From an uncultured Coriobacteriaceae bacterium (GTDB lineage: Bacteria; Actinomycetota; Coriobacteriia; Coriobacteriales; Eggerthellaceae), in assembly GCA_902781245.1 (NCBI GenBank), contig CACZIP010000001.1:1-27990 (forward strand): a stretch of 27,990 bases of DNA, written 5' to 3'. Positions 2-17,622 of the stretch are shown piece by piece. Position 1 is the first letter of the stretch. Every line of letters starts with the position of its first letter. The notes below the pieces were generated by a model, which was not told where the DNA came from, ran no database searches, and saw only the letters and a program-made list of their open reading frames with translations. A program made the position numbers and the translations under genes.

Positions 2-85
2 CCCCACTACGAGAACATCCGCGTATTACGTGACACTAAACACGATTACCGCGAATACCAACTCGAGCTGGAGAAGGCGAAATGA
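2..85 (+). CDS. 3' end of an upstream CDS of unknown product (partial, runs off left edge)
   Basis: Open frame from position 2 (PHYENIRVLRDTKHDYREYQLELEKAK*). Its TGA (83-85) overlaps the ATG (82-84) of the next gene in an ATGA coupling like others in this locus. Confidence 0.5.
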   Translation, partial: PHYENIRVLRDTKHDYREYQLELEKAK

Positions 86-3000
86 CAACGATTCCAAGTA
101 CGACAGTGGCCCTTACGGTCACCGACGCTTTCCATCCCTCTGAAAGCGAACTCGACTTCGTCGTACGCACCTTCAACGTTCGATTCTCCGATTGGCGCGG
201 CAAACGAATCGTGCTCCATGGAACGAGGGAATATGCGCGCGCCATCGTAGAGTCTTTCGACGAAGCATATCGATTTGCCGCCGTAGTTGCCGATGGCTTT
301 GCGAATGCAACATTCGCGGGCAAGGATGTTTGGACCGACAGGCAGCTTGTCGAAGAAAAGCCTGATCTGGTAATTCTCACAGAACGAGTGCGTCACGCCG
401 AAGCCGTCTACCAGGAAATTGGCACGAAATGCCGAGAGGCAGGCATCGCACTCTTTGACATGTATGGACTGGATTGGCTGGCAATGCGCGACGAGATCGA
501 TGGGCAAGGTGCGCACACGTTGGAGGAATGGGTCGATATCGCCGCCCCTTATGACATCGTGAGTTTCGAAGTACCCGATTGCCTGATGATGCCGAACCCG
601 CAAGATGCGGACGTGCCGCTGATCTGCCAACCTTCGATGCGCAAACTCATCAAACGAATCGTGGCACAGGGCAAGCAGGCGCTATTTGTTGGACGCAAGC
701 CCTACACTGCCGAAGAGCAAATCGAGTCGCTCATAGCGTCAGGACTCATCTCCCGCAGAGAAGACGCCCAGGATCTCTTCTTTATGCGCGCGAACGAAGA
801 CGGTGCGTGGCGCACTATCCGTGCTGCTTATCCCGATGCGCGCATCTTACACGTGGGGTATGGCATCCCCAAGGAATGTGTGCTGCCTCGGTATTACGGC
901 GTCAACACGTATCGCATGGTGGGTGAGATAGCACCGGACAGCAAACAGCTCCAATACGGCAACCTTGCACGCGAGTCGCTCGACCCGGCGAAGCTGAAAG
1001 AACGCTTGGAAGCAGCCATCGAACAGGCAGAGGTCGTTTCGTTCGATATCTTCGATACATTGCTCGTACGCACGACGCTTGTGCCCTACGATGTGTTCGA
1101 GATCGTCGAACAACGCGCGGTGGAAATCGGGTTGCCAGCGCAGGGGTTCGCCGCAGCTCGCTTGGCAGCCCAACATAGCGCTGATGGCTATACAGCTGCG
1201 CGTATCTACCAAGCAGTGCAGCATGCCCTTGGCTGCAGCGATGCCGAATGTGAAGAGCTCTATCGTATAGAGCTTGAGGTAGAGCGCGAATCCATTTTTC
1301 CACGCGATTCAATGTGTTCATTGCTGCACAAGGCGCTCGCAAGGGGAAAGACAGTTGTCCTAATCTCTGACATGTACCATTCTGCTGAAACGATGGTCGA
1401 GCTCCTGCAAGCCAACGGCATCACAGGGTATCAGAAGCTCCTCGTTTCGAGCGAGCAGGGCATCCTCAAACGTCAGGGGCTGTTCGATTGCGTGATTTCG
1501 CCAGACACCCCCGCAAACCACATCGTTCATATCGGTGATAGCGTCAACAATGATATCGTTCCAGCCAAGGCAGCCGGCATGCAAGCCATCTTCGTCCCTT
1601 CCCCGCTCGATCTCGCGTTGACACATGGCATCAATCGAATGATGCGCAAGGATATGACCCTGGAGGAGCGCTGCGAGCTGCAAAGCATAATCGTCCGAGA
1701 ATATGCCGACCCTTTCGTTGAGCGAAACCTTGCCGTCGTCGAAGGCGCATGTGAGTCAATTCCCATCCCCTCCGTCGCCTCATTCTGTTCGTGGATGTCA
1801 AACACACCCTCTCTCGAAAAAGCCGTCGTCCATGTCGCACCCTACGAAAGCCGCATCCCTGTCGAGCTCCGTCGTGCGCTTCTCGCCTGGTACCCCTTCC
1901 ACACAGGATCACGTGCCCTGTTCTTGGGATCAGATCGGGAGGCATTCACATCACTGCTTGAAGCACATTACAGTATGCTCGATTTCGAGCTCGCACCCAA
2001 CGTGCAATACGACTTCATCGTCGCGCTCGACGTGCTCGATGGAAATCCTGAGCTGCAAGCGCTCGCCGAACGACTGTCACGCGCATTGGCGCCTGACGGC
2101 GTGCTGCTCTTGGGATTCAGGAACCGTTTCGGCGTGAAATATCTATGCGGCGCCATCGACGACGTTGTTGAAAACCCATTCGCCACGTTCGACTCAACCG
2201 GCTACCCAGGCACCCATGGACGACACGAAATGCAACACCTCGTCGAATGTGCCGAACTTTCGGCAGACCGCTTGTACTACATCATGCCTGATGCGGGTTT
2301 CGCTCAGGCAATCTATACCGACGATTACATTCCCAGTGCGGGAATCCACGACCGCGTGATGCCATTTGACAAGCACAAAAGCCCAATGGTCGCCGTCGAG
2401 CGCGATCTCTATCCCGCCATCGTAGAAGAAGGCATGCTTCCAGCTGTAGCCAACTACTACCTGATGGAATGCCGGAAGCCAGATGCTGCGCGTCCCGCCA
2501 GGCAGGTTGCCCATGTGGCGCTTTCGCTCGATCGCGGGTTGGCACACTCGTTCATCACCACACTGTTCACCGATGGAACCGCTCTCAAAGCCGCCGCACA
2601 TCCAGAAGGCCGTGCGGCGCTCGAAGCGCTTTACGCTAACAGCCAGGCATTGCATGCACGTGGCCTTGTGACTGTCGAAACGCAGCTCGAAGACGACGGT
2701 TTGCACATGCCCTTCATTAAGGAACAGCCGCTTCTCGCACATCTGGATGCGTTGCTGCCCATTGACCCTGATGCATTCATAGCTGTGTTCGACCAACTCT
2801 ACGAGGACGTTCTCGCATCGTCGGAACCCGGCACCATCTCGGATACCGACGCGTGGGGCACCTGGCACGCGAGCGCAACAGAACTCTCCCCCATCCTGCA
2901 AACAGCCTATATCGACATGGTCCCATACAACTCCTTCTGGTCAAACGGCATACTGCGCTTCTTCGACCAGGAATTCACCGTCGCAAATTGCCCAGCGAAA

Positions 3001-3702
3001 TACGTGCTGTTCCGCGCCCTGCGCTATACGTGGATCCATCTGCCGCATGCGGAACAATTGATTCCACTCGAGCGCATGAAGAAGCGCTTTGGCCTCGAAA
3101 AATTATGGGACGACTTCTTGAATTTAGAGGAAAGATTCGTCGAGGAGAACCGCAATCGTGCGCGCTACCGCGACATCTACGAATGGGCACGGTTCGATGC
3201 CCGCAGGATTGCAGAAAGCCGACATGCGTTGGCGCAATCCACGCAAGCCGCCGACGATAAGCCCTATCGCATTGGCCTGCTCATGGGTGTATTCGACCTG
3301 TTCCACGTGGGACATCTACGGCTCATCAAGCGCGCTAAAGCTCGCTGCCAGTTCTTGCGAGTTGCCGTACTCTCCGATGATCTCGTGCGCAAATTTAAAA
3401 ACATCACACCCACCATACCGCTTTCCCAGCGCATGGAAATCATCGCAGCCATAGACGGGGTCGATGAAGTTGTCGCCATCGAGGATGAGCCCTCACGTCT
3501 CGTGGAATGGCATCGCCGGCCCTTCGACTGCTTCTTCTCGGGCGACGATTACGCAGGAAATGAATACTGGGCACAAGAGCGTATCGAATTGGAAAAGCTT
3601 GGCGCAACCATCGAATTCTTCAGCTACACCGAAGAGCAAAGTTCTTCGAAGATTCGAGATGCACTCGAAGGACGCACCACAAACAAGAGGTTATCCGATT
3701 GA
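82..3702 (+). CDS. 1206-aa multidomain glycan biosynthesis protein: Rossmann-like module + degenerate HAD + intact HAD phosphatase + degenerate class I SAM methyltransferase-like + kinase-like + C-terminal HxGH (TagD-like) cytidylyltransferase
   Basis: RBS GGAGAAGG before ATG. Motifs: RIVLHGTREYA; degenerate HAD SFEVPDCL...HVGYGIPKE; intact HAD SFDIFDTLLVR (1039-1071), LISDMY, HIGDSVNND; MTase-like LLAWYPF...LAPDGVLLLGFRNRFGVKYLCG; kinase-like YIDMVPYN and FFDQEF; cytidylyltransferase GVFDLFHVGHL (HVGH at 3304-3315), QRMEIIAAIDGVDEVV, FSGDDY, SSSKIR. Confidence 0.85.
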   Translation: MTTIPSTTVALTVTDAFHPSESELDFVVRTFNVRFSDWRGKRIVLHGTREYARAIVESFDEAYRFAAVVADGFANATFAGKDVWTDRQLVEEKPDLVILTERVRHAEAVYQEIGTKCREAGIALFDMYGLDWLAMRDEIDGQGAHTLEEWVDIAAPYDIVSFEVPDCLMMPNPQDADVPLICQPSMRKLIKRIVAQGKQALFVGRKPYTAEEQIESLIASGLISRREDAQDLFFMRANEDGAWRTIRAAYPDARILHVGYGIPKECVLPRYYGVNTYRMVGEIAPDSKQLQYGNLARESLDPAKLKERLEAAIEQAEVVSFDIFDTLLVRTTLVPYDVFEIVEQRAVEIGLPAQGFAAARLAAQHSADGYTAARIYQAVQHALGCSDAECEELYRIELEVERESIFPRDSMCSLLHKALARGKTVVLISDMYHSAETMVELLQANGITGYQKLLVSSEQGILKRQGLFDCVISPDTPANHIVHIGDSVNNDIVPAKAAGMQAIFVPSPLDLALTHGINRMMRKDMTLEERCELQSIIVREYADPFVERNLAVVEGACESIPIPSVASFCSWMSNTPSLEKAVVHVAPYESRIPVELRRALLAWYPFHTGSRALFLGSDREAFTSLLEAHYSMLDFELAPNVQYDFIVALDVLDGNPELQALAERLSRALAPDGVLLLGFRNRFGVKYLCGAIDDVVENPFATFDSTGYPGTHGRHEMQHLVECAELSADRLYYIMPDAGFAQAIYTDDYIPSAGIHDRVMPFDKHKSPMVAVERDLYPAIVEEGMLPAVANYYLMECRKPDAARPARQVAHVALSLDRGLAHSFITTLFTDGTALKAAAHPEGRAALEALYANSQALHARGLVTVETQLEDDGLHMPFIKEQPLLAHLDALLPIDPDAFIAVFDQLYEDVLASSEPGTISDTDAWGTWHASATELSPILQTAYIDMVPYNSFWSNGILRFFDQEFTVANCPAKYVLFRALRYTWIHLPHAEQLIPLERMKKRFGLEKLWDDFLNLEERFVEENRNRARYRDIYEWARFDARRIAESRHALAQSTQAADDKPYRIGLLMGVFDLFHVGHLRLIKRAKARCQFLRVAVLSDDLVRKFKNITPTIPLSQRMEIIAAIDGVDEVVAIEDEPSRLVEWHRRPFDCFFSGDDYAGNEYWAQERIELEKLGATIEFFSYTEEQSSSKIRDALEGRTTNKRLSD

Positions 3703-4939: not shown

Positions 4940-4988
4940 TAGTACAAATCGCCAACGTTCTTGTGGTTTCATTTCGTGAGGGGAAGCT

Positions 4989-6740: not shown

Positions 6741-6890
6741 GGACAGGTCCCGCCCTTCAGGCACAGGCTCGGGCAAATCGGCGGCGGAACGCTCCAGCAC
6801 GACATCCAGAGCTGGTGGGCGCGCAAACGCGGTCGGGATGACCCCAATCGGCTCATCGGCACCACGCAAAAAACAACGGGCGATGCGTTT

Positions 6891-7979
6891 TTGGCGCTCG
6901 ACGACGTGAGCCTTTCAGTCTACGAAGGAGAAGCGCTGGGAATCATCGGCCGCAACGGCGCAGGCAAGAGCACACTGCTCAAACTACTGTCGCGCGTGAC
7001 GGTGCCAACGACGGGCCAGATTCTCGTCAGGGGCATGATTTCTTCCATGCTCGAAGTGGGCACCGGCTTTCATCGGGAAATGACCGGTCGCGAGAACGTG
7101 TATCTCAACGGCGCGATACTGGGGATGTCCAAGCGAGAAATCGACGAGAAGATGGAAGACATCATCGAATTCGAGGAAATGAGCCGTTTCATCGACACGC
7201 CCGTGAAGCGATACTCGAGCGGCATGTATGTCAAGCTCGCCTTCTCTGTTGCCGCCCACTTGGACAATGACATCATGGTCATGGACGAAGTGCTTTCGGT
7301 GGGAGATGTCATGTTCCGCGCAAAGAGTCTCGCCAAGATGCAGCAGGAAGCGAGCGGCGGCAAGACCATCCTCTACGTGAGCCACAACATGTCCACCATC
7401 AGAAAGCTTTGCGACAGATGCGCGGTGCTCCGGGAAGGCAAGCTCGTGTACTTGGGCGCTACCGAAAAGGCGATCGAAAAGTACCTGGACACGATCCTGG
7501 ACAATCGAACGTCGAGGGACCTATCCCAAATGCCGAGGAGCGCGCGTCTAACATCGCGCAAGATGATCCTCACGCATGCTGAATATCCTGGGAAGGACTG
7601 CATCCAATTCGAAGATGGAGAAAAGCTGACGATGCGCCTTCACTGGGAGGACCTGGACGATTACGAAGACCTTTGCTTACGCGCAGAAGTCTGGACCATC
7701 GAGGATGTCCTGCAAGCGAGCGGCGTAATCCACAACGTGTGCTCGGGCAAGCGCGGTGATTCACACGACGTGACGATAGAGTTGGACATCTCGCGGTTCG
7801 CGAGTGCTACCTACAAAACGAAGTTCACGTTCTTCTTCCGCGATAGGTTCGGGGGCATTCACGATACGGACAGAGTAATCGGATTGTTCTTCGAGAGGGT
7901 TTCGCAAGACGAAGCCCTCTGGGATGTCTCGAATTGGGGTTATATCCATCTCGATGATCTACGAGTGCTGCAATCCTAA
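6891..7979 (+). CDS. wzt: Polysaccharide ABC transporter ATP-binding protein (Wzt) with C-terminal carbohydrate-binding-like domain; probably 5'-truncated
   Basis: Walker A GRNGAGKST, signature YSSGM, Walker B IMVMDE, VSHNM. Wzt homology extends 44 codons upstream to 6759 (RHRLGQIGGGTLQHDIQSWW) with no ATG/GTG/TTG between the CotH stop (6740) and TTG 6891, so it may be a silent or pseudo copy. Confidence 0.7.
   Translation: MALDDVSLSVYEGEALGIIGRNGAGKSTLLKLLSRVTVPTTGQILVRGMISSMLEVGTGFHREMTGRENVYLNGAILGMSKREIDEKMEDIIEFEEMSRFIDTPVKRYSSGMYVKLAFSVAAHLDNDIMVMDEVLSVGDVMFRAKSLAKMQQEASGGKTILYVSHNMSTIRKLCDRCAVLREGKLVYLGATEKAIEKYLDTILDNRTSRDLSQMPRSARLTSRKMILTHAEYPGKDCIQFEDGEKLTMRLHWEDLDDYEDLCLRAEVWTIEDVLQASGVIHNVCSGKRGDSHDVTIELDISRFASATYKTKFTFFFRDRFGGIHDTDRVIGLFFERVSQDEALWDVSNWGYIHLDDLRVLQS
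7137..7168 (+). repeat. 32-bp perfect inverted repeat, arm 1 (inside + wzt)
   Basis: GAAATCGACGAGAAGATGGAAGACATCATCGA; exact reverse complement at 8859-8890. It arises from paralogy of the two wzt genes. Confidence 0.85.
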
Positions 7980-8017
7980 GCAAGAACCGCTGAAACGGAA
8001 ATCGACAGAAGGAAAGT

Positions 8018-9331
8018 TTACTCGGAGATTTCAATATCTACATCGTGCAAGCGAATGGCACCCCAGTAGTTGTGGTGCCAATCAAGATAATTCTTTTCGT
8101 CGAGCTCTACCACCACATCGAACACCACTCCCGGGTACACGCCGTCGAGAATATCTTCATTGCCTTCTTCATCGTGGAAAAACGCTACAAGATCGGCGCT
8201 ATACTGCCCTGTCGTCAAATGCGACAAATCCATGCGCATATGGATTTTGTTGACCCCTTCGTGTAGATCGACGAACCCTCTCGAGAGCATTGTGCCGATC
8301 TTTGTGCCATCTTGCGACCAGAGCTCGAAGCGGAAGCCCACCTGCGCAAGCGGACGCAAAGCCGTGCACGACAACTCCAACTCCACCGTTTCATCAGCGG
8401 CGAACGTAGGAGCGTCTTTACCGAGGATATCAAGCGTGTCGATGTTAAGCCGTCGGTTGAGCCGCAAGTATTCGTCATAGGGACGATAGCCATCATCATA
8501 TTCATAGTGCGTTTGCAACAACGTGTTGCCACCACCCAGATAAAGAGCAACGGCCGCATCAACATCGCCATCAAAGACGATCTTCCCCGCATCCATGACA
8601 ATGCAGCGGTCACACAAACGTTTGATGGTGCTCATATTGTGACTCACATACAAAACGGTCCTATGTTCCTGTTTTGCAGCTTGCCGCATTCGGTCGAGAC
8701 ACTTGTGCTGGAATTCCATATCGCCAACTGCCAGCACCTCGTCCATAATCATGATTTCGCTGTCCAGGTGCGCAGCAACTGAGAAGCCTAGCTTCACGTA
8801 CATGCCGCTTGAGTAGCGCTTTACGGGCGTGTCGATGAAGTCGCGAACTTCCGAGAACTCGATGATGTCTTCCATCTTCTCGTCGATTTCACGGCGCGAC
8901 ATACCCAAGATAGCACCGTTGAGATAGATGTTTTCACGACCTGTCATTTCGCCATTGAAGCCCGTGCCAACTTCAAGCATAGATGCGACTCGGCCATACA
9001 GGTCGATTTCGCCTTCCGTGGGGGCTGTGATGCGACTTAGGATCTTGAGCAGTGTCGACTTTCCAGCACCGTTCTTCCCGATGATGCCGAGCGCCTCGCC
9101 CTTGTACACCGTGAGATCGAGGCCATCGAGCGCATAGAAGTCATCATCCCTCTTCGGTGCAGCACCATCGACTTCGCCAGACCGTTCTATCTGCCTCCGC
9201 TCGCGCCATTCTTTTATGTCGCCTTGGAGCGTACCGCTGCCAATCTGACCAAGACGATAACGCTTACGCAAGCCCGAAATCGCAATGATCGGTTCACGTT
9301 CGGTGTTCTGTCTGCTTGTCTGATGCGCCAT
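8018..9331 (-). CDS. wzt: Polysaccharide ABC transporter ATP-binding protein Wzt with C-terminal Wzt_C-like domain, 437 aa
   Basis: ATG at 9331, 2 nt after the wzm stop. IAISGLRKRYRLGQIG, Walker A GKNGAGKST, YSSGM, IMIMDEVLAVGD, VSHNM; beta-rich C-terminal extension. Confidence 0.92.
   Translation of the reverse strand: MAHQTSRQNTEREPIIAISGLRKRYRLGQIGSGTLQGDIKEWRERRQIERSGEVDGAAPKRDDDFYALDGLDLTVYKGEALGIIGKNGAGKSTLLKILSRITAPTEGEIDLYGRVASMLEVGTGFNGEMTGRENIYLNGAILGMSRREIDEKMEDIIEFSEVRDFIDTPVKRYSSGMYVKLGFSVAAHLDSEIMIMDEVLAVGDMEFQHKCLDRMRQAAKQEHRTVLYVSHNMSTIKRLCDRCIVMDAGKIVFDGDVDAAVALYLGGGNTLLQTHYEYDDGYRPYDEYLRLNRRLNIDTLDILGKDAPTFAADETVELELSCTALRPLAQVGFRFELWSQDGTKIGTMLSRGFVDLHEGVNKIHMRMDLSHLTTGQYSADLVAFFHDEEGNEDILDGVYPGVVFDVVVELDEKNYLDWHHNYWGAIRLHDVDIEISE
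8859..8890 (-). repeat. 32-bp perfect inverted repeat, arm 2 (inside - wzt)
   Basis: TCGATGATGTCTTCCATCTTCTCGTCGATTTC is the reverse complement of 7137-7168. Confidence 0.85.
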
Positions 9332-9333
9332 AT

Positions 9334-10173
9334 CTACACCGTATCCACGAACGTTCGCTCCACGCGATTGAACATAAGGATGCCGCATACCGCACACACC
9401 AGCGCAACCACGATGCTAATTCCCGTTGTAATGGGATCGATGGTCCCCGAGCCCAGCAGGGCGAATCGAAGCCATTCTACTGGCGCCGTTACCGGATTCA
9501 GCATCACGACGGTTCGCAGTATCCCTTCGGGAATCTGCGAAAGCGGGTACACGATGGGAGTGCCGAACATCCAAAGCTGCATTCCGAACGACACGAGAAT
9601 TTGCAGGTCGCGATATTTTGTCGTCAAGCTGGACAAGATGATGCCCACACCCATACCTAGAACACAAAGATGCACAAGAGCGAGTGGAATGATCAGCCAC
9701 ATCAACCAGTTCGGGCTTACCGTGCCTTGCACGACGAAGAACGCCACCAATGCAAGCACGAGAATCATCTGTATGCCGAACCGGATGAGCCCTACGAGTA
9801 GATTTGAAACAGGTACAGTGAGCCGCGGGAAATATACCTTGCCGAACACGTTTGCATTCGCAATGAACGTTGCCGCATTGTCGGTGACCGCTGATGCAAA
9901 CAAGCCCCATATAGCCGTGCTCGCTAGATAGAACAGGATTTGGGGTACTCCATTGGTACTGATGCCGGCTATGACGCCAAACACAAGCATATAGGCGATG
10001 CTCGACAGAAGCGGACTGATGATTATCCACGCAGGCCCCAGCACCGTCTGCTTGTACGTGAGCGTGAACGTCTTTTTCGTGAGCAGCACGATGAGGTCGC
10101 GATATTGCCAAACTTCACCAAGGTTGAGCCCTACGCACTCCGTTTCGGAAGATATGTGGACATGATAGGTCAT
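9334..10173 (-). CDS. wzm: Polysaccharide ABC transporter permease Wzm, 279 aa
   Basis: WQYRDLIVLL...TYKQTVLGPAWIIISPL, ANVFGKVYFPRLTVP, LTTKYRDL, WMFGTPIVYP, LNPVTAPVE; about six hydrophobic segments. ATG 10173 overlaps the upstream TGA (ATGA). Confidence 0.93.
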   Translation of the reverse strand: MTYHVHISSETECVGLNLGEVWQYRDLIVLLTKKTFTLTYKQTVLGPAWIIISPLLSSIAYMLVFGVIAGISTNGVPQILFYLASTAIWGLFASAVTDNAATFIANANVFGKVYFPRLTVPVSNLLVGLIRFGIQMILVLALVAFFVVQGTVSPNWLMWLIIPLALVHLCVLGMGVGIILSSLTTKYRDLQILVSFGMQLWMFGTPIVYPLSQIPEGILRTVVMLNPVTAPVEWLRFALLGSGTIDPITTGISIVVALVCAVCGILMFNRVERTFVDTV

Positions 10174-12848
10174 AGCAAATAGATTAACCCCCTCTTGGAG
10201 CTTGTTTCGTGAGGCTCTCGCCAAGAGTCACCATAGTATAAATCGAGCCACTTCTCTGCATTTCCCGGAACGGGGATGGTGGTACCTTCAAATGATACGC
10301 GGACCGCGTGGGCAATATCGGCTTCAGCGAACCGCACGTGATTGGGCCTGCGGCGATAGTTCCCGGTGAAGCAGGTGAGCAAGCCCGTGGGCTTCACCGC
10401 TGTGCAGGATGCGCGCAACCCGCGGCAAAGCGCAGAACGACTCACCAGGTCGGCGAGCAGGAAGTATGCACTTACTTTGTGGGGATCGGCATCCCAGATT
10501 TGCTCGAGATTGTCATAGGTCTTCGCATAGAGCAGCCTTTGCCATGTGCGCACGATGCGTTGCCGCTTCTCGACCTCCGCATCGTCGAGAGGACAATTGT
10601 CGAGGGGAAGAATATCTATCCACACCCCCTCCTCTTCTGAATGCTTATCGTTCTCCGACCTCTCTACAATCGCAGATAGATTGCGTAATTTAGCATAACC
10701 GCCGGTGAAGCTCGCAGCATCATTTTCGGGGGTCTGAAGAACAAACGGTTCGGGAAATACACCACATGCAGCCAGTTCAGTCAAACGATCGTAATCTGCG
10801 CGGGGCATAGCCACATCGATATCATCGTCTCCTGAAACGAAGCCGCCCTCGCGCACGGCTCCAAGCAACGTGCCGTGCGTCGCAACGTACTTCAGATCGA
10901 ATTCTTCGCACACGGCATCGAAAACATCGAGCAACTCGAGCATCGCATACGTAATGTCGCGCTTCGCAATCTGATTGCCGTCCATGCAAACGTCGCCTTC
11001 AACTGCATCATCACTTGCAGCTGCGTCGCCAACTGGATTGTTGAGCGGTATCAGTTCGTCAATCCGCTTCGTAAGCACACGCCCGCTCAAGTCATCGACG
11101 AGTGTCATGCTGTCTGTGTCGCACAGGTCGAGATACGGCATTATGGCATTCAGGAAGGCTGGAGATATCACGTCGCCTTTTTCGTACCAATGCCTGAAAT
11201 ACTCGCGCGCGAAAAGCTTGACACCTTTATGCACATCTTGAAGAATCCGCAGCTCTCCAGAAGTGCGGTATTCAGTGCTGAAAACTGGCGTTCCGTCATC
11301 GTCGAAGCCTTTCAACGATGGTTCGGTTGAGCTCAGGTAAGGTTCGAGGACGAGATAGCGCGAGAAAAAGCTCACATGTTCGCTGTCGAAATAGAGCGAA
11401 CATGTGAGCTTGCGAGAGATGTTGTTCCCTATGCGCGATCCAAAATAGAACCCTTTGAGACAGAAGGGAGCGAACCGCTCGAGTTGACGCTGGCACGTTC
11501 CCGCACCAACGAACTCGACAAACGCATATGTTTTTCCCAAGCCGAGACCGCACGAAGCGAAATAACTCAGGGAATTGTCACGCTCGACCGTCGAGACAAT
11601 TGCAGCACGACTAGCATTGCGCGACGTATAGAAATACCTCGACAAAGGATATGGCCCCCCCGCGCATTGGCTCCGGAAGATATCGTACACGCCTTTCACA
11701 AGAAACCCGTCTCGCGAGACGAACAACGCTTCCTCGAATACTTCCGGAGATTTCGCAAAACAATCCGCCAACCACGTCACAAACCCGACAACCAGAGGCG
11801 CAACTATTGCAACAACCTTGGCAGACCGTTTGTCAATAGCGTCGGAAATATCGGGCAAAACCGCACGCGCGCACGACAAGAGGCGATCATCAGGCGCTCG
11901 CCCCTCTTCAACTACCTCGTCTTCATACCAAATTCCCCTCGGAACAATCTCTTCTCTCAAGCCTTCGAGTCGAATGCCGTTTGGCACTTCCAACAAACTC
12001 GTCAATACAGATCGCTTGCCATAACAGAGGGGAATGTAACAGTCGCGAAGGATATCCATGCCGATGTGAACCGTTGCACCTGAAGGCAGATGCCTGTACA
12101 TGAGTCGATAGAGGCCGTTTTCGGCAAATGAATCCGTTTCTGCCGCCAAGAACAACGGTCCCGTATTCGCCAGGCCAGCTTGTTCGAGTAGAGATAGAGC
12201 GGTCTTCTTGTCCACTGCGGGATCGACGCAATAGTATGCAACCTTCTTGCCTTTTGCGAGTTCGTAGGCAAGAATCGAACTGAGGCACTCGGAAATATCC
12301 ACCTGATTTCGAATGCACTTTGCAATTTCCATTGTCGCCGCCGCGCCGATAAGCAACCCTATGCTAACGCAAAGGGAGTTGCTCGACTCGATTTCTTCCA
12401 GCTTGCTTTCCAACGATTGCGCGATTGCTCGCTGAGTCAACGCCTCTATGGCCTCGCAATCGTTGCCATACATGTCTAGTAAGCGCACTCCAGCATCGAA
12501 GCATCTTTCACGAATGCGGCTGATGACAGCAAGAGCAGAAGTAAACTTAGCAGCGACGATAAGCGCATCAATTCCCTGAGAAAGAACGGCTTCGAGACTC
12601 GATACCACGAACTCGTCCACCGTCTCGCCAATTGCATTGTCGTCGGCAATCGCCACAACATCGAAGCACCGACCTTCGGCGTCGAGAATGTAATGCGCAT
12701 TTGCGCCTGACCCATACAATGCAACTCGTCTACCTTGAAGGTTCTTGCTCGCAGACAAAAGCGCTGCGAGACGATAGTCCGTTTCGCACTCAAAGTCTGC
12801 TGGTTTGCGAATTGAAACCCCAGCGTCTTTACATAGAAGCCTGTTCAC
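10170..12848 (-). CDS. 892-aa multidomain protein: Rossmann-like module + degenerate HAD + putative phosphoribosyltransferase-like (SRDG) domain + C-terminal LicD-family phosphotransferase
   Basis: RVALYGSGANA; degenerate HAD VHIGMDILRD; FVSRDG, YFYTSR, AFVEFVGAGTCQ, GFYFG; LicD motifs LLDVFDAVCEEFDLKY, HGTLLGAVREGGF, GDDDIDVAMPRADYDRL, WIDILPLD, LDLYYGDSW. GTG start is uncertain. Confidence 0.8.
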   Translation of the reverse strand: MNRLLCKDAGVSIRKPADFECETDYRLAALLSASKNLQGRRVALYGSGANAHYILDAEGRCFDVVAIADDNAIGETVDEFVVSSLEAVLSQGIDALIVAAKFTSALAVISRIRERCFDAGVRLLDMYGNDCEAIEALTQRAIAQSLESKLEEIESSNSLCVSIGLLIGAAATMEIAKCIRNQVDISECLSSILAYELAKGKKVAYYCVDPAVDKKTALSLLEQAGLANTGPLFLAAETDSFAENGLYRLMYRHLPSGATVHIGMDILRDCYIPLCYGKRSVLTSLLEVPNGIRLEGLREEIVPRGIWYEDEVVEEGRAPDDRLLSCARAVLPDISDAIDKRSAKVVAIVAPLVVGFVTWLADCFAKSPEVFEEALFVSRDGFLVKGVYDIFRSQCAGGPYPLSRYFYTSRNASRAAIVSTVERDNSLSYFASCGLGLGKTYAFVEFVGAGTCQRQLERFAPFCLKGFYFGSRIGNNISRKLTCSLYFDSEHVSFFSRYLVLEPYLSSTEPSLKGFDDDGTPVFSTEYRTSGELRILQDVHKGVKLFAREYFRHWYEKGDVISPAFLNAIMPYLDLCDTDSMTLVDDLSGRVLTKRIDELIPLNNPVGDAAASDDAVEGDVCMDGNQIAKRDITYAMLELLDVFDAVCEEFDLKYVATHGTLLGAVREGGFVSGDDDIDVAMPRADYDRLTELAACGVFPEPFVLQTPENDAASFTGGYAKLRNLSAIVERSENDKHSEEEGVWIDILPLDNCPLDDAEVEKRQRIVRTWQRLLYAKTYDNLEQIWDADPHKVSAYFLLADLVSRSALCRGLRASCTAVKPTGLLTCFTGNYRRRPNHVRFAEADIAHAVRVSFEGTTIPVPGNAEKWLDLYYGDSWREPHETSSKRGLIYLL

Positions 12849-12852
12849 CGCA

Positions 12853-13797
12853 TCAACGCCTTAAAAACTCTGCGGTTTTCATGATGCCCTCATCGACTGA
12901 AACGTGCGGCTGCCAGCCGAGCATCTCCTTCGCTAACGAGATATCCGGTTTACGCCGTGCAGGATCGTCAGAAGGCAGGTCGCAGAACACCACCTTTGAG
13001 GATGAGCCCGTGAGGGCAATCACCTTTTCGGCGAGCTCGAGCATGGTGAGCTCCTCGGGATTCCCCAGGTTAACCGGACCTGTGAACCCTTCGCATTCCA
13101 TCATGGACACGAGCGCATCGAGCATATCCTCCACGAAGCAGAAGCTTCGTGTCTGGGTGCCGTCGCCATATATCGTGACGTTTTCCCCCGCAAGGGCTTG
13201 AGAAATGAAATTCGTCATCACGCGTCCATCGTCAACACGCATGCCGGGGCCATATGTGTTGAACACTCGGACAACGCGGATTTCCACGCCATACATACGG
13301 TGGTAGTCGAAGAACAAGGTTTCCGCAGCACGTTTCCCCTCGTCATAGCATGCACGCACGCCGATAGGATTCACATTTCCTCGATAGTTTTCCCGCTGCG
13401 GATGCTCCAGCGGATCTCCGTAGATTTCGCTGGTCGACGTCAGAAGCACTCGTGCATTGGTGCGGCGAGCAAGCTCGAGCACGTTGATGGCACCGAAAAC
13501 GCTCGTCTTCATCGTGGCGATAGGGTCGGCTTGATAAAAAGGGGGGCTGGCTGGACATGCGAGGTTGTAGATATGACCAACTTTTTCAATCGAGTTGAAG
13601 GCGCTTGCATCAGCCACGTCGGCTTTCAGGAACGAGAAGTTCGGATATGCAACAAGATCGGCTATGTTTTCTTCTCGGCCCGAAATCATATTATCGAGAC
13701 ATACAACCCGTTTGCCTTCTCCCACAAGGCGTCTACATAGGTTGGAACCGATAAAACCAGCGCCACCTGTCACAAGCGCCGTTTTGTCAAACCCCAC
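12853..13797 (-). CDS. uxs: UDP-glucuronic acid decarboxylase (UDP-xylose synthase), extended SDR family, 314 aa
   Basis: [92 protein letters not shown] 13797 follows AGGAGG. Confidence 0.92.
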
Positions 13798-13849
13798 GAT
13801 TACTTTCCTCCTGTTTTTAAGCCAAGCCCAACGGCGCATGCCCAGACCA

Positions 13850-15334
13850 CTAACGTCTGATCCTTTTCTTTATTTTCCTGACTGCCCTAATGGCCTGCTT
13901 TCCCGCTTTGTAAAGCCGGGGATGTGATAAATGCACTCCAACTCTGAACTTGTTCAAAAGATAAACACAGCGAGGAACAGTATACGTTTGCATTTCCGCG
14001 CCGAGGTAGCGCGCAACATTGGCCTTCATCTCCTCGGCATATTTTGCAGCGGTAATTATTACAACATCAAGGTTGAGGGAAGCCGCGTCTGCAATACCAA
14101 TGACTGGTTTTCCACAAAACGTTTTACCTGGAGCTGCATCTGTTTCTAAAAAAAAGCAAGATCTCCCCTTCGTGTCGAACACCTTGAGAAAGCCCTTGCA
14201 TGCCATGCCTGTTCCGTAGAATCCAATACGAGATGCCGACTCGATTATCGGCACATTACAATGTATCAGTGATTTCACCAGGTCCTTCGTAAGAACGACA
14301 GGCGAATTCGGCCACACAGCGACACCATCCGCGAGGTTTATCACCGCAGAAAGGTGCATGGACCTGACGGCATCGGGAAGATCATCTCGAGCGCATTCCT
14401 CGCATAGGAACCGGACGAAGCATGACGTCAGCTCGCGAAGGTACTCTGTTGGCTCAAGCCCCGAAAACTCCCTAAAACGGCAATCTTTCACACCGCTCAC
14501 GTTTTGTATCATCATCAGGTGTGCCCGATCGTGTTCTGCACGCGCCAAACTGCATAAGATGGCATGCACATCGAAACTGCTATCTGCTAAAACGTGCGTG
14601 AATCCCGATCGGACGTTCGACCCTGAGCGCGAGCGATAGCGATGAAGCCTGAGCGGCACGAATTTCATCCGCTTAGCTGCCATGAAGATTCGCACAATCC
14701 AGTCGTTGTCTTCGAAGTAGATGCCCTCGACAAAAGTCAAATTGTTCTCAATAAGAAACGAGCGGTCGAAGTATTCGAGCCAGCAGAGGAAACCTATCAT
14801 TCCTTCGGGGAAATAGCGGTTCCAAAACGAGACCCCATCAATGACATCTTCATCGATTATCCCGCGACGATCACGAAAATCGCGAAACAGTTCGGGGCGC
14901 ACGACGTTGGGGTCGTCGACGAATCCGGCGGTTTCGAACGTTACAAAATCCAAGTCAAATTCCTTGCAAACTCGGTAACACGTTTCAAAGTGCTCGGGAA
15001 CAATCCAGTCGTCAGAATCCATGAAGTAGACGTACTCGCCGCGAGCTTCCAGGAGGCCACGGTTACGAGCTGCCCCTTGCCTAAGATTGGGTTGCTGGAT
15101 TACACGAACTCTCGGATCGCGGTCTTCATAGGAGCGCTCTATCTCAAGGCTACCATCGGTCGAGCCGTCATCGACGAGAATGACTTCAATTTCTTGCTGG
15201 GTCTGTGCGAGCACGCTGTCGAGACAGGCCGGCAAGTATTCCTGCGTGTTGTATACGGGAATGATGACCGAGGTTTTCGGAACGGGAGCGCTTGCTGTGA
15301 ACGAGGCATTCGCGATGGCTGCTGATTTGAGCAT
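13850..15334 (-). CDS. GT2 family glycosyltransferase with C-terminal Rossmann-like module, 494 aa
   Basis: [66 protein letters not shown]; C-terminal [11 protein letters not shown]...GKPVIG...LDVVII. RBS GGAGG. Confidence 0.92.
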
Positions 15335-15543
15335 ATGGTTATACCTCCAGCTTAATCGCTAAAAACGCCGATGGCATTGAAGTATCCCCGAATATCCCGT
15401 CCGTGATTCGAGCTACCATGTGTAACTCCTTGCAGCACGCCCTTCAAACTCGTTTGCCTTTACCAGAAGGCATGTGTAATCATACAACGTAAATCAGGGC
15501 ACATGTGCTCAAGCATAGCAACCACTGAAAGAGATGTTTCACC

Positions 15544-17622
15544 ATGCTGTTCATTTCCAGGCGCTACCTTTGTATCTATCGCTCGAACGAGAAACTCGAC
15601 GTCGTGGAAAAACGCAATTTGCGAGAACTCCTTGAAGCAAGGCCTTCAAATACCATCTATTTCGAAACCGCCGATAACAAGCTCTACGGCATGATTTCCT
15701 ATGGGGACATCCGCAAGGCAAGGGATGGGATAGTGCGCATAAACAATTCTTTCGTTTCCCTCGAGCGCGATGCATATATGGAAGCTCGGGAACGTTTCCG
15801 TAGGTCAAACAGCATCTGTGAAATACCCGTTGTTAAAAATGGCCAGCTTGTTGGCGAGTTTCACAAGTTTGACGATGAGCTCATGATCGACCGCGCCGTG
15901 GACCTTGATAACAACGCATACGCACCTGCCTATTTTGCGAGGCTTCGCAACGTCGCTATTGTAAAGCCTCCTGCGTCACGCGATTACAAAATGCGTTATT
16001 TCGAGAAGCTGAAACGCATCTTTGATCACTATGCAGTCGCATACACGGTCCTGGAAGTTTCAGATATCGCGCAGAATCTCACGCGCTTCGACAGGTTCTT
16101 CGTCGTAGACGAGCAAGAGCGGCGAGGGGTGCATATTATCATCTCCCTCTTCGAAGACAAGCAGCATTTCTTTTACAAGATAGTCACGTTCCTCAGAATG
16201 CTCAACAGAATCGAATCGGATGAGGCAATCGACTACAAGAAACTATTCTCCGAGCTCGAAAAGCGAGGCGTCGAGACGGTCCTCATGACCACGAAGCGCA
16301 ATGATTCCAATTACGTCGTAAAAACGGAAAAGGAAATGAAGGAGCGGTTTCCCACAGTTGCCAACAATCTCAACGAGCTCATGGTGCAATATGAGCAGCA
16401 ATTCTTTGACGACCTCTACGAGAAGACGTACGCTCGCGAAATCGAAGCTTGTCATTTCTCCATCCAAAGAGTTCGAGATGGTATACGCCTGAAAGATATC
16501 AAGAGCGAACTCGTGAACGTCGAGCATGGGGAACGAGCAACGGTCGACCAGCCCGACGACTACGAGCGATGCATCTACTTCTTTGGACAATGCCTGATTA
16601 TCGGAGCGTACGTTGACGATGCGCACACAATCGAAAGCTATTTGCAAGCCATGGTCAATGAAGCAGGTTATAAAGCGCGCATTGTGAATTGCGGATGCTG
16701 GGGAAATGCCATCCAGAGCGTTGTCCGAATGCTTGCCACCCCATTAAGGGAAGGCGACATCGTGGTGATGCTGTCAGAAGATCCCGATGTAGACACCACG
16801 AATCTGAAAACCGTCGATCTATGGCAAACACTCGAAAAAAACGGGGCCCCTTCCCAATGGATGCTCGACATTCCCTTCCATGCCAACCATCATGTTTCGG
16901 AGCTATGTGCAAAAGCGCTCTTTGACGTCATTTTCGATTCCAGATACAAAGACAAGCCGAGAAGCACTGAAGTAATCACGCAGGGCTTCGACATCGTGGA
17001 CCAGTTCTTCACACAGAATTATTTCCACGGTCAAGACCTGAGACGTTTCAATCGGGTAGCGTGCTGCGTCTTCAATGGCAACCCTTTCACCAACGGGCAC
17101 AAGTATCTTATCGAGACCGCCTCGAAAGCTGTAGACCACGTATATCTGCTCTCGTTGAGGGAGAATTGCAGCATGTTTTCCTTCAACGAACGCTACGCGA
17201 TGGCTGTTGACGCAACGAGTAACTTGCCTAACGTCACCGTCGTGCCAGACAGCCTTTCAGTCGCTGACGCCACCAACTTCCCCGCATATTTCATCAAGGT
17301 TTACGAAGGTGATGCCGAAGAGCAAATCGAACGACACGTCGAAATGTACGCCGCCATAGCAAAACCGCTTCATACCACACATCGCTATGTTGGGGAAGAA
17401 GCCCATGACCTCGTAGCCAATGGCATCAATGAGGCGTGTAAGAGAATTCTCCCCCGTTACGGAATCAAAACGGTGGTGGTCAAACGCAAGGAGGACGACA
17501 GCGGAGTCATCACAGGATCATGCGTCCGAGAACTTGCCGCTAACAACAATCCCAGACTTGACAGTCTTGTCCCAAAGGCAACCGCCAACATCATCCGCTG
17601 CAAGGAGATCAACGCTTTTTAG
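15544..17622 (+). CDS. 692-aa fusion: CBS-like N-terminus + SGNH-like domain (Cys at nucleophile position) + C-terminal [citrate (pro-3S)-lyase] ligase (CitC)-like adenylating domain
   Basis: CBS-like KLYGMISYGDI and EIPVVKNGQLVGE. SGNH-like YFFGQCLIIG, NCGCWG, DIPFHANH. CitC-like VFNGNPFTNGHKYLIE, SMFSFNERY, NLPNVTVV, FPAYFIK, RYVGEE, ITGSCVRE. Confidence 0.75.
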   Translation: MLFISRRYLCIYRSNEKLDVVEKRNLRELLEARPSNTIYFETADNKLYGMISYGDIRKARDGIVRINNSFVSLERDAYMEARERFRRSNSICEIPVVKNGQLVGEFHKFDDELMIDRAVDLDNNAYAPAYFARLRNVAIVKPPASRDYKMRYFEKLKRIFDHYAVAYTVLEVSDIAQNLTRFDRFFVVDEQERRGVHIIISLFEDKQHFFYKIVTFLRMLNRIESDEAIDYKKLFSELEKRGVETVLMTTKRNDSNYVVKTEKEMKERFPTVANNLNELMVQYEQQFFDDLYEKTYAREIEACHFSIQRVRDGIRLKDIKSELVNVEHGERATVDQPDDYERCIYFFGQCLIIGAYVDDAHTIESYLQAMVNEAGYKARIVNCGCWGNAIQSVVRMLATPLREGDIVVMLSEDPDVDTTNLKTVDLWQTLEKNGAPSQWMLDIPFHANHHVSELCAKALFDVIFDSRYKDKPRSTEVITQGFDIVDQFFTQNYFHGQDLRRFNRVACCVFNGNPFTNGHKYLIETASKAVDHVYLLSLRENCSMFSFNERYAMAVDATSNLPNVTVVPDSLSVADATNFPAYFIKVYEGDAEEQIERHVEMYAAIAKPLHTTHRYVGEEAHDLVANGINEACKRILPRYGIKTVVVKRKEDDSGVITGSCVRELAANNNPRLDSLVPKATANIIRCKEINAF

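What the first reader, a model, noticed from the sequence alone, without database searches (positions are those of the whole stretch)
11080..11730. Possible split ribofuranosyltransferase: PRT-like half on the LicD protein, phosphatase half on the 1206-aa protein
Seen: the 892-aa protein has FVSRDG, YFYTSR, AFVEFVGAGTCQ, GFYFG and LEPYLSSTEPSLKGF, but its adjacent HAD lacks the Asp nucleophile motif. The 1206-aa protein has an intact FDIFDTLLVR/SDMY/HIGDS HAD (1033-1600) with no such domain after it. Established: bacterial ribofuranosyltransferases (for example the CriT/CrpP part of Haemophilus influenzae b Bcs3) pair a PRPP-using phosphoribosyltransferase-like domain with a HAD that removes the 5-phosphate. 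Inference, from my recollection of that family's motifs: VEFVGAGT is the PRPP-binding loop, and the two activities here sit on two polypeptides about 10 kb apart and complement in trans. The loop is atypical, so the donor could differ from PRPP or the domain could be inactive.
Basis: partly seen in the sequence, partly recalled or inferred. Interest (0 to 1): 0.72.

Follow-up and report, generated by a model that had tools for sequence, protein, structure and literature searches.

The report
Ribose-adding enzyme split over two proteins
A gut bacterium's cell-surface sugar locus encodes a genuine PRPP-using ribose transferase fused to a LicD phosphotransferase but without its usual phosphatase, while the matching phosphatase lies on a second large protein in the same locus; natural separation of this normally fused pair is not described in the papers searched.

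Summary
The 892-aa protein (P0001, 10170-12848, minus strand) carries every quoted motif.

- **gPRT domain.** Residues ~318-590 are a true gPRT/CriT-type glycan phosphoribosyltransferase. A family profile hits only Bcs3 CriT (E 3e-11) and 7SHG (E 9e-7). An AF2 model (pLDDT 90.8) has those two structures as its top eight Foldseek matches. The active-site residues are conserved, so the "atypical" loop is in fact the family consensus.
- **Dead HAD.** The adjacent HAD is non-catalytic (hhalign 98.6% to PRP-type HADs, but cap and catalytic residues lost). It is an old scaffold that also occurs in enzymes with an active phosphatase.
- **Phosphatase on P0002.** The 1206-aa protein (82-3702) has an intact HAD that is specifically PRP/CrpP-type (E 5e-26 and 3e-16, against 2.5e-8 for the best generic HAD).
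- **Linkage.** The two proteins keep complementary halves of an ~840-aa fused architecture. P0002-like and P0001-like genes are neighbours in all five informative loci, and each domain occurs once in this 71%-complete genome.

Trans dephosphorylation is therefore likely (~0.6) but unproven. Two related loci show no phosphatase in the sequence available. Verdict: a new variant of a known kind, of moderate-to-good interest.

The parts
10170..12848 (-). P0001, 892 aa: N-terminal Rossmann-like domain + pseudo-HAD + gPRT + LicD
   Evidence: ORF and translation; Pfam LicD only; domain analysis
12444..12785 (-). N-terminal Rossmann-like domain of P0001 (aa ~22-135), shared with P0002 and with HAD-gPRT fusion enzymes
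   Evidence: BLASTP P0001 20-277 vs P0002 21-273, E 2e-11; alignment; Foldseek resemblance to the Rex Rossmann domain, prob 1.0, rmsd 2.8 A over ~100 residues
11979..12431 (-). Pseudo-HAD of P0001 (aa ~140-290): HAD core without cap; motif I Asp, motif II Ser, motif III Lys and the first Asp of motif IV all lost
   Evidence: Alignment with intact HAD-gPRT proteins; hhalign vs PRP-HAD profile, prob 98.6%, E 1.2e-15; five-strand beta-alpha pattern in the AF2 model
11079..11897 (-). gPRT/CriT-type glycan phosphoribosyltransferase domain (aa ~318-590). Key residues: S378 R379 D380, S409 R410 R414, E445, G448-T451, E502
   Evidence: Profile A1 hits only Bcs3 CriT (3e-11) and 7SHG (9e-7); AF2 pLDDT 90.8; Foldseek top 8 hits are 7SHG and Bcs3, prob 1.0; invariant columns; residue roles from PMC10299916
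10230..10910 (-). LicD phosphotransferase domain (aa 647-873) with DDDID motif at 674-678
   Evidence: Pfam PF04991, E 1.9e-30, full-length match; motif position
82..3702 (+). P0002, 1206 aa: N-terminal domain + pseudo-HAD + intact PRP-type HAD + methyltransferase-like region + unassigned region + cytidylyltransferase
142..981 (+). N-terminal domain + pseudo-HAD of P0002 (aa ~21-300), homologous to the same module in P0001 and in ~840-aa enzymes
   Evidence: 41% identity to P0040 over residues 23-624
1033..1599 (+). Intact PRP/CrpP-type HAD phosphatase (aa 318-506): D322/D325 (FDIFDT), S429-D430 (SDMY), K463, G485-D486...D491
   Evidence: Profile A2 vs PDB: Bcs3 CrpP 4.7e-26, 7SHG PRP 2.8e-16, next HAD 2.5e-8; invariant residues; motifs kept in all 15 P0002-like clusters
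3259..3666 (+). Cytidylyltransferase domain (aa ~1060-1195), the likely source of the CDP-activated donor for LicD
   Evidence: Pfam PF01467, E 2.7e-14; TagD/ECT/CCT PDB hits; orthologous to stand-alone 149/154-aa genes that directly follow gPRT-LicD genes in L006 and L011
12853..13839 (-). Extended-SDR epimerase/dehydratase-like gene immediately upstream of P0001; conserved partner in most related loci (absent next to the gene in L009)
   Evidence: Pfam and NCBIfam; directly upstream, overlapping or a few bases away, in loci and 32 nt away; 66-73% identity across loci
8018..10224 (-). Wzm (9334-10224) and Wzt (8018-9397) ABC exporter directly downstream of P0001
   Evidence: Pfam ABC2_membrane, ABC_tran, Wzt_C

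Best explanation
P0001 and P0002 together form a naturally split, PRPP-dependent ribofuranosyltransferase within a cytoplasmic, ABC-transporter-dependent surface-glycan pathway.

Step 1 (homology shown, activity inferred): the gPRT domain of P0001 (aa ~318-590) binds PRPP. S378/R379 and S409 hold the pyrophosphate. R410, R414 and the G448-T451 loop hold the 5-phosphate. D380 and E445 hold the ribose. The domain transfers beta-ribofuranose-5-phosphate to a hydroxyl of the growing glycan, with the invariant E502 as the probable base.

Step 2 (inferred): P0001's own HAD is a non-catalytic scaffold, so the 5-phosphate is removed by the intact PRP/CrpP-type HAD of P0002 (aa 318-506, nucleophile D322) acting in trans.

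Step 3 (inferred): P0002's C-terminal cytidylyltransferase makes a CDP-activated alcohol or alditol phosphate. The LicD domain of P0001 transfers it to the glycan, possibly onto the new ribose.

P0002 would then supply both things P0001's two transferase domains need. The N-terminal domain + pseudo-HAD module that both proteins share may hold them together (speculative).
For: gPRT identity:
- Profile A1 matches only Bcs3 CriT (E 3.3e-11) and the 7SHG gPRT domain (E 9.4e-7) in the whole PDB.
- The AF2 model has pLDDT 90.8.
- Foldseek's top 8 hits are all 7SHG or 8A0C/8A0M (prob 1.0, TMq 0.48-0.59), followed by type I PRTases.
- R379, D380, Y405, S409, R410 and E502 are invariant, and G450, T451 and Q453 near-invariant, across 65-121 relatives.
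- These align to Bcs3 S678/R679/D680, S707/R708/R712 and E818, whose roles are given in PMC10299916.

Dead HAD.

P0002 HAD is PRP-type: E 4.7e-26 to CrpP and 2.8e-16 to the 7SHG PRP domain, against 2.5e-8 for the best other HAD. All catalytic motifs are invariant.

Complementary halves: P0002 23-624 is 41% identical to P0040 3-618 (E 5e-131). P0040 is an ~840-aa protein with the order N-terminal domain, pseudo-HAD, HAD, gPRT. P0001 matches P0040 3-255 and 535-831 and skips its HAD.

Linkage: the own genome has one gPRT and one PRP-type HAD. P0002-like genes lie within 0.05-7 kb of a P0001-like gene in the window, L008, L009, L010 and the P0181 contig.

Feasibility: Bcs3 cut between CrpP and CriT is inactive as separate parts but active when they are mixed (PMC10299916).

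Cytidylyltransferase-LicD link: stand-alone orthologs of P0002's C-terminal domain overlap the 3' end of gPRT-LicD genes in L006 and L011.
Against: No biochemical data exist for any member of this subfamily.

In L006 (14.5 kb) and L011 (10.3 kb), the gPRT-LicD gene is flanked by the SDR gene and a stand-alone cytidylyltransferase, and no PRP-type HAD is seen in the available sequence. A dedicated PRP partner is therefore not shown to be universal. P0002's HAD could be a lineage-specific addition with another substrate.

Co-location in one glycan locus is expected for any two enzymes of the same pathway and does not prove that the HAD acts on the gPRT product.

The genome is 71% complete, so further copies cannot be excluded.

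The window also holds a small HAD-like ORF (24780-25163; weak Pfam hits only) that could in principle be the phosphatase.

The acceptor, the CDP-donor and the glycan structure are unknown.
Confidence: 0.6

Rival explanations
1. The gPRT domain of P0001 is active, but P0002's HAD is not its partner. The ribose 5-phosphate is either kept in the glycan or removed by an unrelated phosphatase, for example the small HAD-like ORF at 24780-25163 or a housekeeping enzyme. P0002's HAD works on something else, such as a precursor of the CDP-activated donor or a terminal phosphate group linked to its methyltransferase-like region.
For: L006 and L011 carry SDR + gPRT-LicD + a stand-alone cytidylyltransferase with no PRP-type HAD in 14.5 and 10.3 kb. 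This shows that the conserved core of the system is SDR + gPRT-LicD + cytidylyltransferase, and that the HAD belongs to an optional N-terminal extension of the cytidylyltransferase. A second HAD-like ORF exists in the window. P0002 also holds other modules of unknown role.
Against: P0002's HAD is 8 to 18 orders of magnitude closer to CrpP and the 7SHG PRP domain than to any other solved HAD. Its whole N-terminal 600 residues are 41% identical to bona fide HAD-gPRT fusion proteins. In the papers read here, PRP-type HADs act only on PRPP-derived ribose-5-phosphate adducts (PMC11127046). The L006 and L011 contigs are short, so a PRP could lie just outside them. In Bcs3 and STM0726, loss of the PRP nucleophile leaves a Rib-5-P-terminated product.
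Confidence: 0.27
2. The gPRT-like domain of P0001 is catalytically inactive or uses a donor other than PRPP, and serves mainly as a scaffold or acceptor-binding module for the LicD domain.
For: The domain lacks the ~55-residue helical insert (the equivalent of Bcs3 HB-2) found in most relatives and has no catalytic phosphatase beside it. No activity data exist.
Against: Every residue assigned to PRPP binding and catalysis in CriT is present, and these residues are invariant or near-invariant across the family, including the LicD-fused subfamily. The fold is predicted with very high confidence. A few HAD-bearing relatives also lack the insert.
Confidence: 0.06

Closest known systems
Bcs3 of Haemophilus influenzae type b (CroT-CrpP-CriT-SH3b; PDB 8A0C/8A0M; PMC10299916)
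   Same: P0001 has a CriT-type PRPP-dependent ribose-5-phosphate transferase domain with the same active-site residues. P0002 has a CrpP-type HAD. The ribosyltransferase is fused to a CDP-alcohol-dependent phosphotransferase, so the chemistry may likewise give a ribosyl-(alditol)-phosphate unit. An engineered CrpP/CriT split of Bcs3 works in trans.
   Different: Here the phosphatase and the transferase are naturally on two polypeptides. The phosphotransferase is LicD-type, not TagF-like. The gPRT lacks the HB-2 bundle that contacts CrpP and CroT in Bcs3. There is no SH3b domain. Both proteins carry an extra N-terminal Rossmann-like domain + pseudo-HAD module. The host is a Gram-positive gut actinobacterium (closest named relative: an Atopobiaceae MAG) with Wzm/Wzt export.
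Dual-domain ribofuranosyltransferases (PRP-gPRT), e.g. Thermobacillus composti enzyme PDB 7SHG, K. pneumoniae O4 ORF5, Salmonella STM0726, C. jejuni Cj1432 middle and C-terminal domains
   Same: Same two catalytic domain families and the same collinear order (HAD-like, then gPRT) in P0001. Top structural and profile matches.
   Different: The prototypes have an active N-terminal PRP on the same chain, with an invariant Asp nucleophile. In P0001 that position holds a capless HAD remnant with all four motifs destroyed, and the active PRP is on P0002.
~840-aa uncharacterised family (P0040, P0071, P0043, P0059 and others; Bacillota MAGs): N-terminal domain + pseudo-HAD + HAD + gPRT
   Same: Closest sequence relatives of both window proteins. 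P0002 23-624 is 41% identical to P0040 3-618. P0001 matches P0040's N-terminal module and its gPRT domain.
   Different: These proteins keep both catalytic domains on one chain. P0001 has lost or never had the active HAD and gained LicD. P0002 has a methyltransferase-like region and a cytidylyltransferase in place of the gPRT.
C. youngae O1 ORF15 (PRP fused to a UbiA-type polyprenyl-phosphate phosphoribosyltransferase; PMC11127046)
   Same: Precedent for a PRP-type HAD that is not fused to a gPRT yet still acts on a PRPP-derived ribose-5-phosphate adduct.
   Different: ORF15's partner transferase is a membrane UbiA-family enzyme on the same polypeptide. P0002 has no transferase for PRPP at all.

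Membership tests
gPRT / CriT glycan phosphoribosyltransferase | Sequence-profile homology to the solved prototypes (Bcs3 CriT, 7SHG C-terminal domain) | tested here: met
   Profile A1: Bcs3 645-837, E 3.3e-11; 7SHG 300-621, E 9.4e-7; no other PDB hit at E<=1
gPRT / CriT glycan phosphoribosyltransferase | PRTase-like alpha/beta catalytic core flanked by helical bundles | tested here: met
   AF2 pLDDT 90.8. Foldseek top 8 hits are 7SHG and 8A0C/8A0M, prob 1.0. Type I PRTases (OPRT, HGPRT) follow at prob 0.85-0.97
gPRT / CriT glycan phosphoribosyltransferase | Loop 1 S-R-D (Bcs3 S678, R679, D680): pyrophosphate and ribose binding | tested here: met
   S378-R379-D380. R and D are invariant in 121 sequences. 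Aligned to Bcs3 FISRDG. Roles from PMC10299916
gPRT / CriT glycan phosphoribosyltransferase | Loop 2 S-R-x3-R (Bcs3 S707, R708, R712) | tested here: met
   S409-R410...R414, with the same spacing. S409 and R410 are invariant
gPRT / CriT glycan phosphoribosyltransferase | Loop 3 acidic residue (Bcs3 E818) followed by a Gly-rich 5-phosphate loop | tested here: met
   AFVEFVGAGTCQ aligns to Bcs3 AFVEFWGRGYTQ. E445 is present and G450/T451/Q453 are near-invariant
gPRT / CriT glycan phosphoribosyltransferase | Proposed catalytic base (Bcs3 E874) on the helix after loop 5 | tested here: inconclusive
   E502 is invariant in the family and lies on the equivalent helix of the model. The HMM alignment to Bcs3 stops at residue 837, so the equivalence is inferred from spacing and from the 7SHG alignment
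gPRT / CriT glycan phosphoribosyltransferase | PRPP-dependent transfer of ribose-5-phosphate to a glycan acceptor | not testable with these tools
   Needs an enzyme assay
Prototypical dual-domain Ribf-transferase (PRP + gPRT on one chain) | Active HAD phosphatase with an invariant Asp nucleophile on the same polypeptide | tested here: not met
   P0001's HAD-like region lacks motif I Asp, motif II Ser, motif III Lys, the first Asp of motif IV and the cap. The same holds for the 18 subfamily members aligned; one search shows for P0001 that motifs II, III and IV are also lost
Bcs3-type CriT | HB-2 helical bundle between loop 2 and loop 3 (contacts CrpP and CroT) | tested here: not met
   Loop 2 to loop 3 spacing is 39 residues in P0001, against a median of 95 in relatives with a full HAD and 111 in Bcs3
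PRP / CrpP phosphoribose phosphatase (P0002 aa 318-506) | Profile homology to CrpP and the 7SHG PRP domain above that to generic HADs | tested here: met
   E 4.7e-26 and 2.8e-16, against 2.5e-8 for the next HAD. With the single sequence, Bcs3 and 7SHG were the only HAD-domain hits
PRP / CrpP phosphoribose phosphatase (P0002 aa 318-506) | HAD motifs I-IV intact | tested here: met
   FDIFDT (D322, D325), SDMY (429), K463, HIGDSVNND (483-491). The key residues are invariant in 47 sequences
PRP / CrpP phosphoribose phosphatase (P0002 aa 318-506) | Hydrolysis of the 5-phosphate of glycan-linked ribofuranose-5-phosphate | not testable with these tools
   Needs an enzyme assay
LicD phosphotransferase (P0001 aa 647-873) | Full-length Pfam PF04991 match above the gathering score, with the acidic DxD-type motif | tested here: met
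   107 bits against a cut-off of 22.6, profile positions 1-227 of 227. DDDID at 674-678

The most novel reading that the evidence does not exclude
P0001, P0002 and the conserved SDR form a two-protein counterpart of the Hib Bcs3 multi-enzyme machine in a Gram-positive gut actinobacterium. It would be a teichoic-acid-like polymerase that alternates PRPP-derived ribofuranose with a CDP-derived alditol phosphate, with a LicD domain doing the job of the TagF-like CroT. The duplicated N-terminal domain + pseudo-HAD module would dock the two proteins, so that the phosphatase and the CDP-donor synthase sit beside the two transferase sites. The minimal L009 locus (Wzm, Wzt, P0002-like, P0001-like, a second LicD and a dehydrogenase, with no classical glycosyltransferase) is compatible with this reading.
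Probability: 0.3. Interest if true: 0.75.

Novelty: new variant of a known kind. Interest (0 to 1): 0.6.

Why it matters
PRPP-dependent ribofuranosyltransferases were recognised only in 2022-2023. In the papers read here they are always described as bipartite enzymes, with the transferase and its phosphatase on one chain.

This locus shows a natural arrangement in which the two activities lie on different proteins. Each protein keeps a shared non-catalytic scaffold, and the transferase is fused to a LicD phosphotransferase. If the model holds, three things follow.

1. Searches that use the phosphatase domain as a marker, or that expect a fused pair, would misread such systems. About a quarter of the gPRT proteins retrieved here lack an intact HAD.
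2. It gives a candidate polymerase type for complex, ribose-containing teichoic-acid-like polymers of Gram-positive bacteria. The Bcs3 paper states that polymerases for such polymers are still unidentified.
3. It offers a ready-made two-protein system for asking how multi-enzyme glycan machines assemble, and what conserved dead-enzyme domains do in them.

Tried and rejected
1. Complex prediction of the P0001 gPRT domain (alignment A1) with the P0002 HAD domain (alignment A2) gave no verdict (score 0.00, controls not run). It counts neither for nor against binding.

2. Single-sequence phmmer of P0001 1-645 against the PDB found nothing meaningful. The homology appeared only with a family profile.

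3. Pfam and NCBIfam give no hit for P0001 1-645.

4. I first recalled the Bcs3 domain order wrongly (CriT at the N-terminus) and briefly suspected that the SRDG motif belonged to the TagF-like CroT. The paper corrected this.

5. Searches of 120 family-level and 300 class-level genomes found no P0001-type gene outside the own genome, and only two other gPRT-bearing genomes. Genome-wide co-occurrence statistics were therefore not possible, and the evidence rests on metagenomic contigs.

6. The idea that loss of the HB-2 insert tracks loss of the fused HAD was rejected as a strict rule. Some HAD-bearing proteins lack the insert, and some HAD-less ones keep it.

7. The whole-model Foldseek comparison did not show that the pseudo-HAD occupies the same rigid-body position as the PRP in 7SHG or Bcs3. 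The alignment is collinear but the rmsd is 22-33 A.

8. A profile of P0002's middle region (545-1060) against the PDB, and an Atlas look-up, gave only weak methyltransferase similarity and sub-threshold kinase-like leads. No function is claimed for it.

9. The Kelly et al. 2022 paper on gPRT/PRP is not held in the library, so I could not check whether it already mentions separate gPRT and PRP genes.
Full report
**Observation.** The window is one whole contig of a 71%-complete MAG. Its closest named relative is an Atopobiaceae MAG protein. FVSRDG is at 376-381, YFYTSR at 405-410, AFVEFVGAGTCQ at 442-453, GFYFG at 466-470 and LEPYLSSTEPSLKGF at 501-515. The finding's coordinates 11080-11730 are aa ~374-590. 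P0002 (82-3702, plus strand, 1206 aa) has FDIFDTL at 321, SDMY at 429 and HIGDS at 483. Pfam sees only LicD (647-873) in P0001. In P0002 it sees a weak HAD, a weak methyltransferase-like match and a cytidylyltransferase.

**The SRDG domain is a gPRT/CriT domain.** A search of 1.8 billion representative proteins with P0001 300-645 found 673 relatives. A 121-sequence alignment (A1) used as a profile against all PDB sequences hit only Bcs3 (residues 645-837, E 3.3e-11) and 7SHG, the T. composti ribofuranosyltransferase (residues 300-621, E 9.4e-7). According to PMC10299916, Bcs3 is CroT 1-373, CrpP 374-591, CriT 592-1036 and then SH3b. I had recalled this order wrongly and corrected it from the paper.

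CriT's PRPP site is built from three loops. Loop 1 is S678/R679/D680, loop 2 is S707/R708/R712, and loop 3 is E818 with main chain 821-825. E874 is the proposed base. The HMM alignments place P0001 S378/R379/D380, S409/R410/R414 and E445 followed by G448-A-G-T451 on these residues. R379, D380, Y405, S409, R410 and E502 are invariant, and G450/T451/Q453 nearly so.

An AF2 model of residues 300-645 has pLDDT 90.8. Its eight best Foldseek matches in the PDB are all 7SHG or Bcs3 chains (prob 1.0, TMq 0.48-0.59), with classical type I PRTases next. One difference from most relatives is that P0001 and its subfamily have only 33-49 residues between loop 2 and loop 3, against a median of 95. They therefore lack the counterpart of the HB-2 helical bundle.

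**The HAD next to it is dead, and anciently so.** I aligned P0001-like proteins with ~685-aa relatives that have the order N-terminal domain, HAD, gPRT. All 18 LicD-fused members aligned there lack the motif I aspartates and the ~60-residue cap. Profile-profile comparison of this region with PRP-type HADs gives 98.6% probability (E 1.2e-15). It covers only the post-cap core, and in P0001 the motif II Ser, the motif III Lys and the first Asp of motif IV are also replaced. The same capless module precedes the intact HAD in P0002. It also does so in an ~840-aa family with the order N-terminal domain, pseudo-HAD, HAD, gPRT (P0040 and others). So this is a conserved non-catalytic module and not a recently inactivated phosphatase. 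P0001 simply has no catalytic HAD.

The model of residues 1-645 (pLDDT 90.2) aligns collinearly with Bcs3 CrpP + CriT and with 7SHG (E 3e-9 and 3e-7). The rmsd is 22-33 A, so the relative domain orientation is not shown to be the same. The N-terminal domain resembles the Rossmann domain of Rex.

**P0002's HAD is a PRP/CrpP-type phosphatase.** A 47-sequence profile (A2) scores 4.7e-26 on Bcs3 CrpP and 2.8e-16 on the 7SHG PRP domain. The best other HAD in the PDB scores 2.5e-8. The catalytic residues are invariant, and all 15 P0002-like clusters keep FDxFDTL. P0002 23-624 is 41% identical (E 5e-131) to P0040 3-618, which covers that protein's N-terminal domain, pseudo-HAD, HAD and the first helices of its gPRT. 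Beyond that point P0002 has a methyltransferase-like region in place of the gPRT core, and the gPRT profile finds nothing in P0002.

**Are the two halves partners?** Relative to the ~840-aa architecture, P0001 keeps the gPRT and P0002 keeps the HAD. The own genome holds exactly one of each. Neither type of gene is common in the lineage. No P0001-like gene was found in 120 family genomes, and gPRT was found in 2 of 300 other genomes of the class.

On metagenomic contigs, P0002-like genes (45-54% identical) lie 0.05-3.5 kb from a P0001-like gene in L008, L009, L010 and the P0181 contig, usually convergent with it. In the window the distance is 6.5 kb. A sixth contig ends before the expected position. 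P0019's neighbour of at least 1,142 aa is probably another case.

Trans action is biochemically feasible. Bcs3 cut between CrpP and CriT is inactive as separate parts and active when they are mixed (PMC10299916). PRP mutants of STM0726 leave a Rib-5-P-terminated product, which wild-type enzyme then dephosphorylates (PMC11294581). A PRP not fused to a gPRT is also known in C. youngae ORF15 (PMC11127046).

**Evidence against an obligatory partnership.** In L006 (P0024) and L011 (P0055, a distant fusion of the same architecture), the gPRT-LicD gene is preceded by the SDR gene. It is followed, with overlap, by a stand-alone 149- or 154-aa cytidylyltransferase that is clearly orthologous to P0002's C-terminal domain. 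No PRP-type HAD is detectable in the 14.5 and 10.3 kb available. The conserved core is therefore SDR + gPRT-LicD + cytidylyltransferase. The PRP belongs to an N-terminal extension of the cytidylyltransferase that some lineages have. These contigs are short, so this is not proof of absence, but it keeps alive the rival that the phosphate is retained or removed otherwise. A small HAD-like ORF in the window (24780-25163) has only weak Pfam hits and sits in a sugar-nucleotide operon.

**Mechanism proposed.**
1. The gPRT domain transfers beta-Ribf-5-P from PRPP to the glycan.
2. P0002's HAD removes the 5-phosphate.
3. P0002's cytidylyltransferase supplies a CDP-activated phospho-alcohol or alditol, which the LicD domain (DDDID motif) transfers.
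4. Export is by the adjacent Wzm/Wzt transporter.

The SDR is 66-73% identical across loci in which the gPRT has diverged to ~30%. It is adjacent to, and in most loci overlaps, the gPRT-LicD gene. It most likely acts on a small conserved substrate. From my own knowledge of the S. pneumoniae 17F CDP-arabinitol pathway (a cytidylyltransferase plus a CDP-xylulose reductase), a CDP-pentitol route is an attractive but untested possibility. An epimerase acting on the pentofuranose is another.

**Novelty.** The domain families are known (7SHG; Bcs3; Cj1432, PMC12096443). What I could not find described in the held library is a natural gPRT/PRP split, a gPRT-LicD fusion, or the conserved pseudo-HAD module. 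The key 2022 paper was not available. The architecture is not a one-off: about 25 LicD-fused clusters and several other HAD-less gPRT proteins were retrieved. I rate it a new variant of a known kind. The gPRT assignment is near certain (>0.9), and the trans-phosphatase model stands at about 0.6.

Noticed in passing
window 12853-13839 (-); L006 8967-10001; L011 2464-3399; L008 18252-19199; L010 9997-10959: An extended-SDR (epimerase/dehydratase-like) gene sits immediately upstream of the gPRT-LicD gene in most related loci (absent in L009), overlapping its start in most of them. It stays 66-73% identical even where the gPRT domain has diverged to ~30%. It may make a CDP-pentitol donor or epimerise the pentofuranose.
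   Followed up: partly
L009 (GCA_978016955.1 contig) 4972-16092: A minimal locus: Wzt, Wzm, a P0002-like gene (1243 aa), a convergent gPRT-LicD gene (931 aa), an Ldh_2-family dehydrogenase and a 290-aa LicD. It has no classical glycosyltransferase and no SDR next to the gPRT-LicD gene. It would be a good candidate for heterologous reconstitution.
   Followed up: no
L008 9117-10004, L010 2693-3562, P0175 contig; window start 1-81: A stand-alone ~290-aa LicD gene overlaps the start of the P0002-like gene in three loci. In the window the contig begins only 81 nt upstream of P0002, so such a gene may have been cut off.
   Followed up: no
window 12444-12785 (-) and 142-480 (+): The ~110-aa N-terminal domain shared by P0001 and P0002 resembles the NAD(H)-binding Rossmann domain of Rex repressors in the model (Foldseek prob 1.0, rmsd 2.8 A). 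It probably corresponds to Pfam C2185-like_N (PF22674), which is also attached to DUF1919 and GT2 proteins in related loci.
   Followed up: partly
window 6891-7979 (+) and 8018-9397 (-): Two ABC-transporter ATPase genes converge tail to tail. Only the minus-strand one has a detectable Wzt C-terminal domain, and only one wzm gene is present.
   Followed up: no
window 24780-25163 (-): A 127-aa ORF with weak capless-HAD similarity (NIF, Hydrolase_6; E 0.0015-0.005) sits in an operon with an SIS-domain gene and an NTP-transferase/kinase gene. It is a possible alternative phosphatase but more likely belongs to a sugar-nucleotide pathway.
   Followed up: partly
P0002 aa ~545-625 (window ~1715-1956): The alignment of P0002 to the ~840-aa HAD-gPRT protein P0040 continues past the HAD into the first gPRT helices and strand. 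There the ARDG and YFYTSR motifs are replaced (PYES, LFLGSD), and the region merges into a methyltransferase-like fold with a decayed glycine-rich motif.
   Followed up: partly
window 4989-6740 (+): A CotH-kinase-family protein with an N-terminal chitobiase/Fn3-associated domain is conserved beside the exporter genes in related loci.
   Followed up: no
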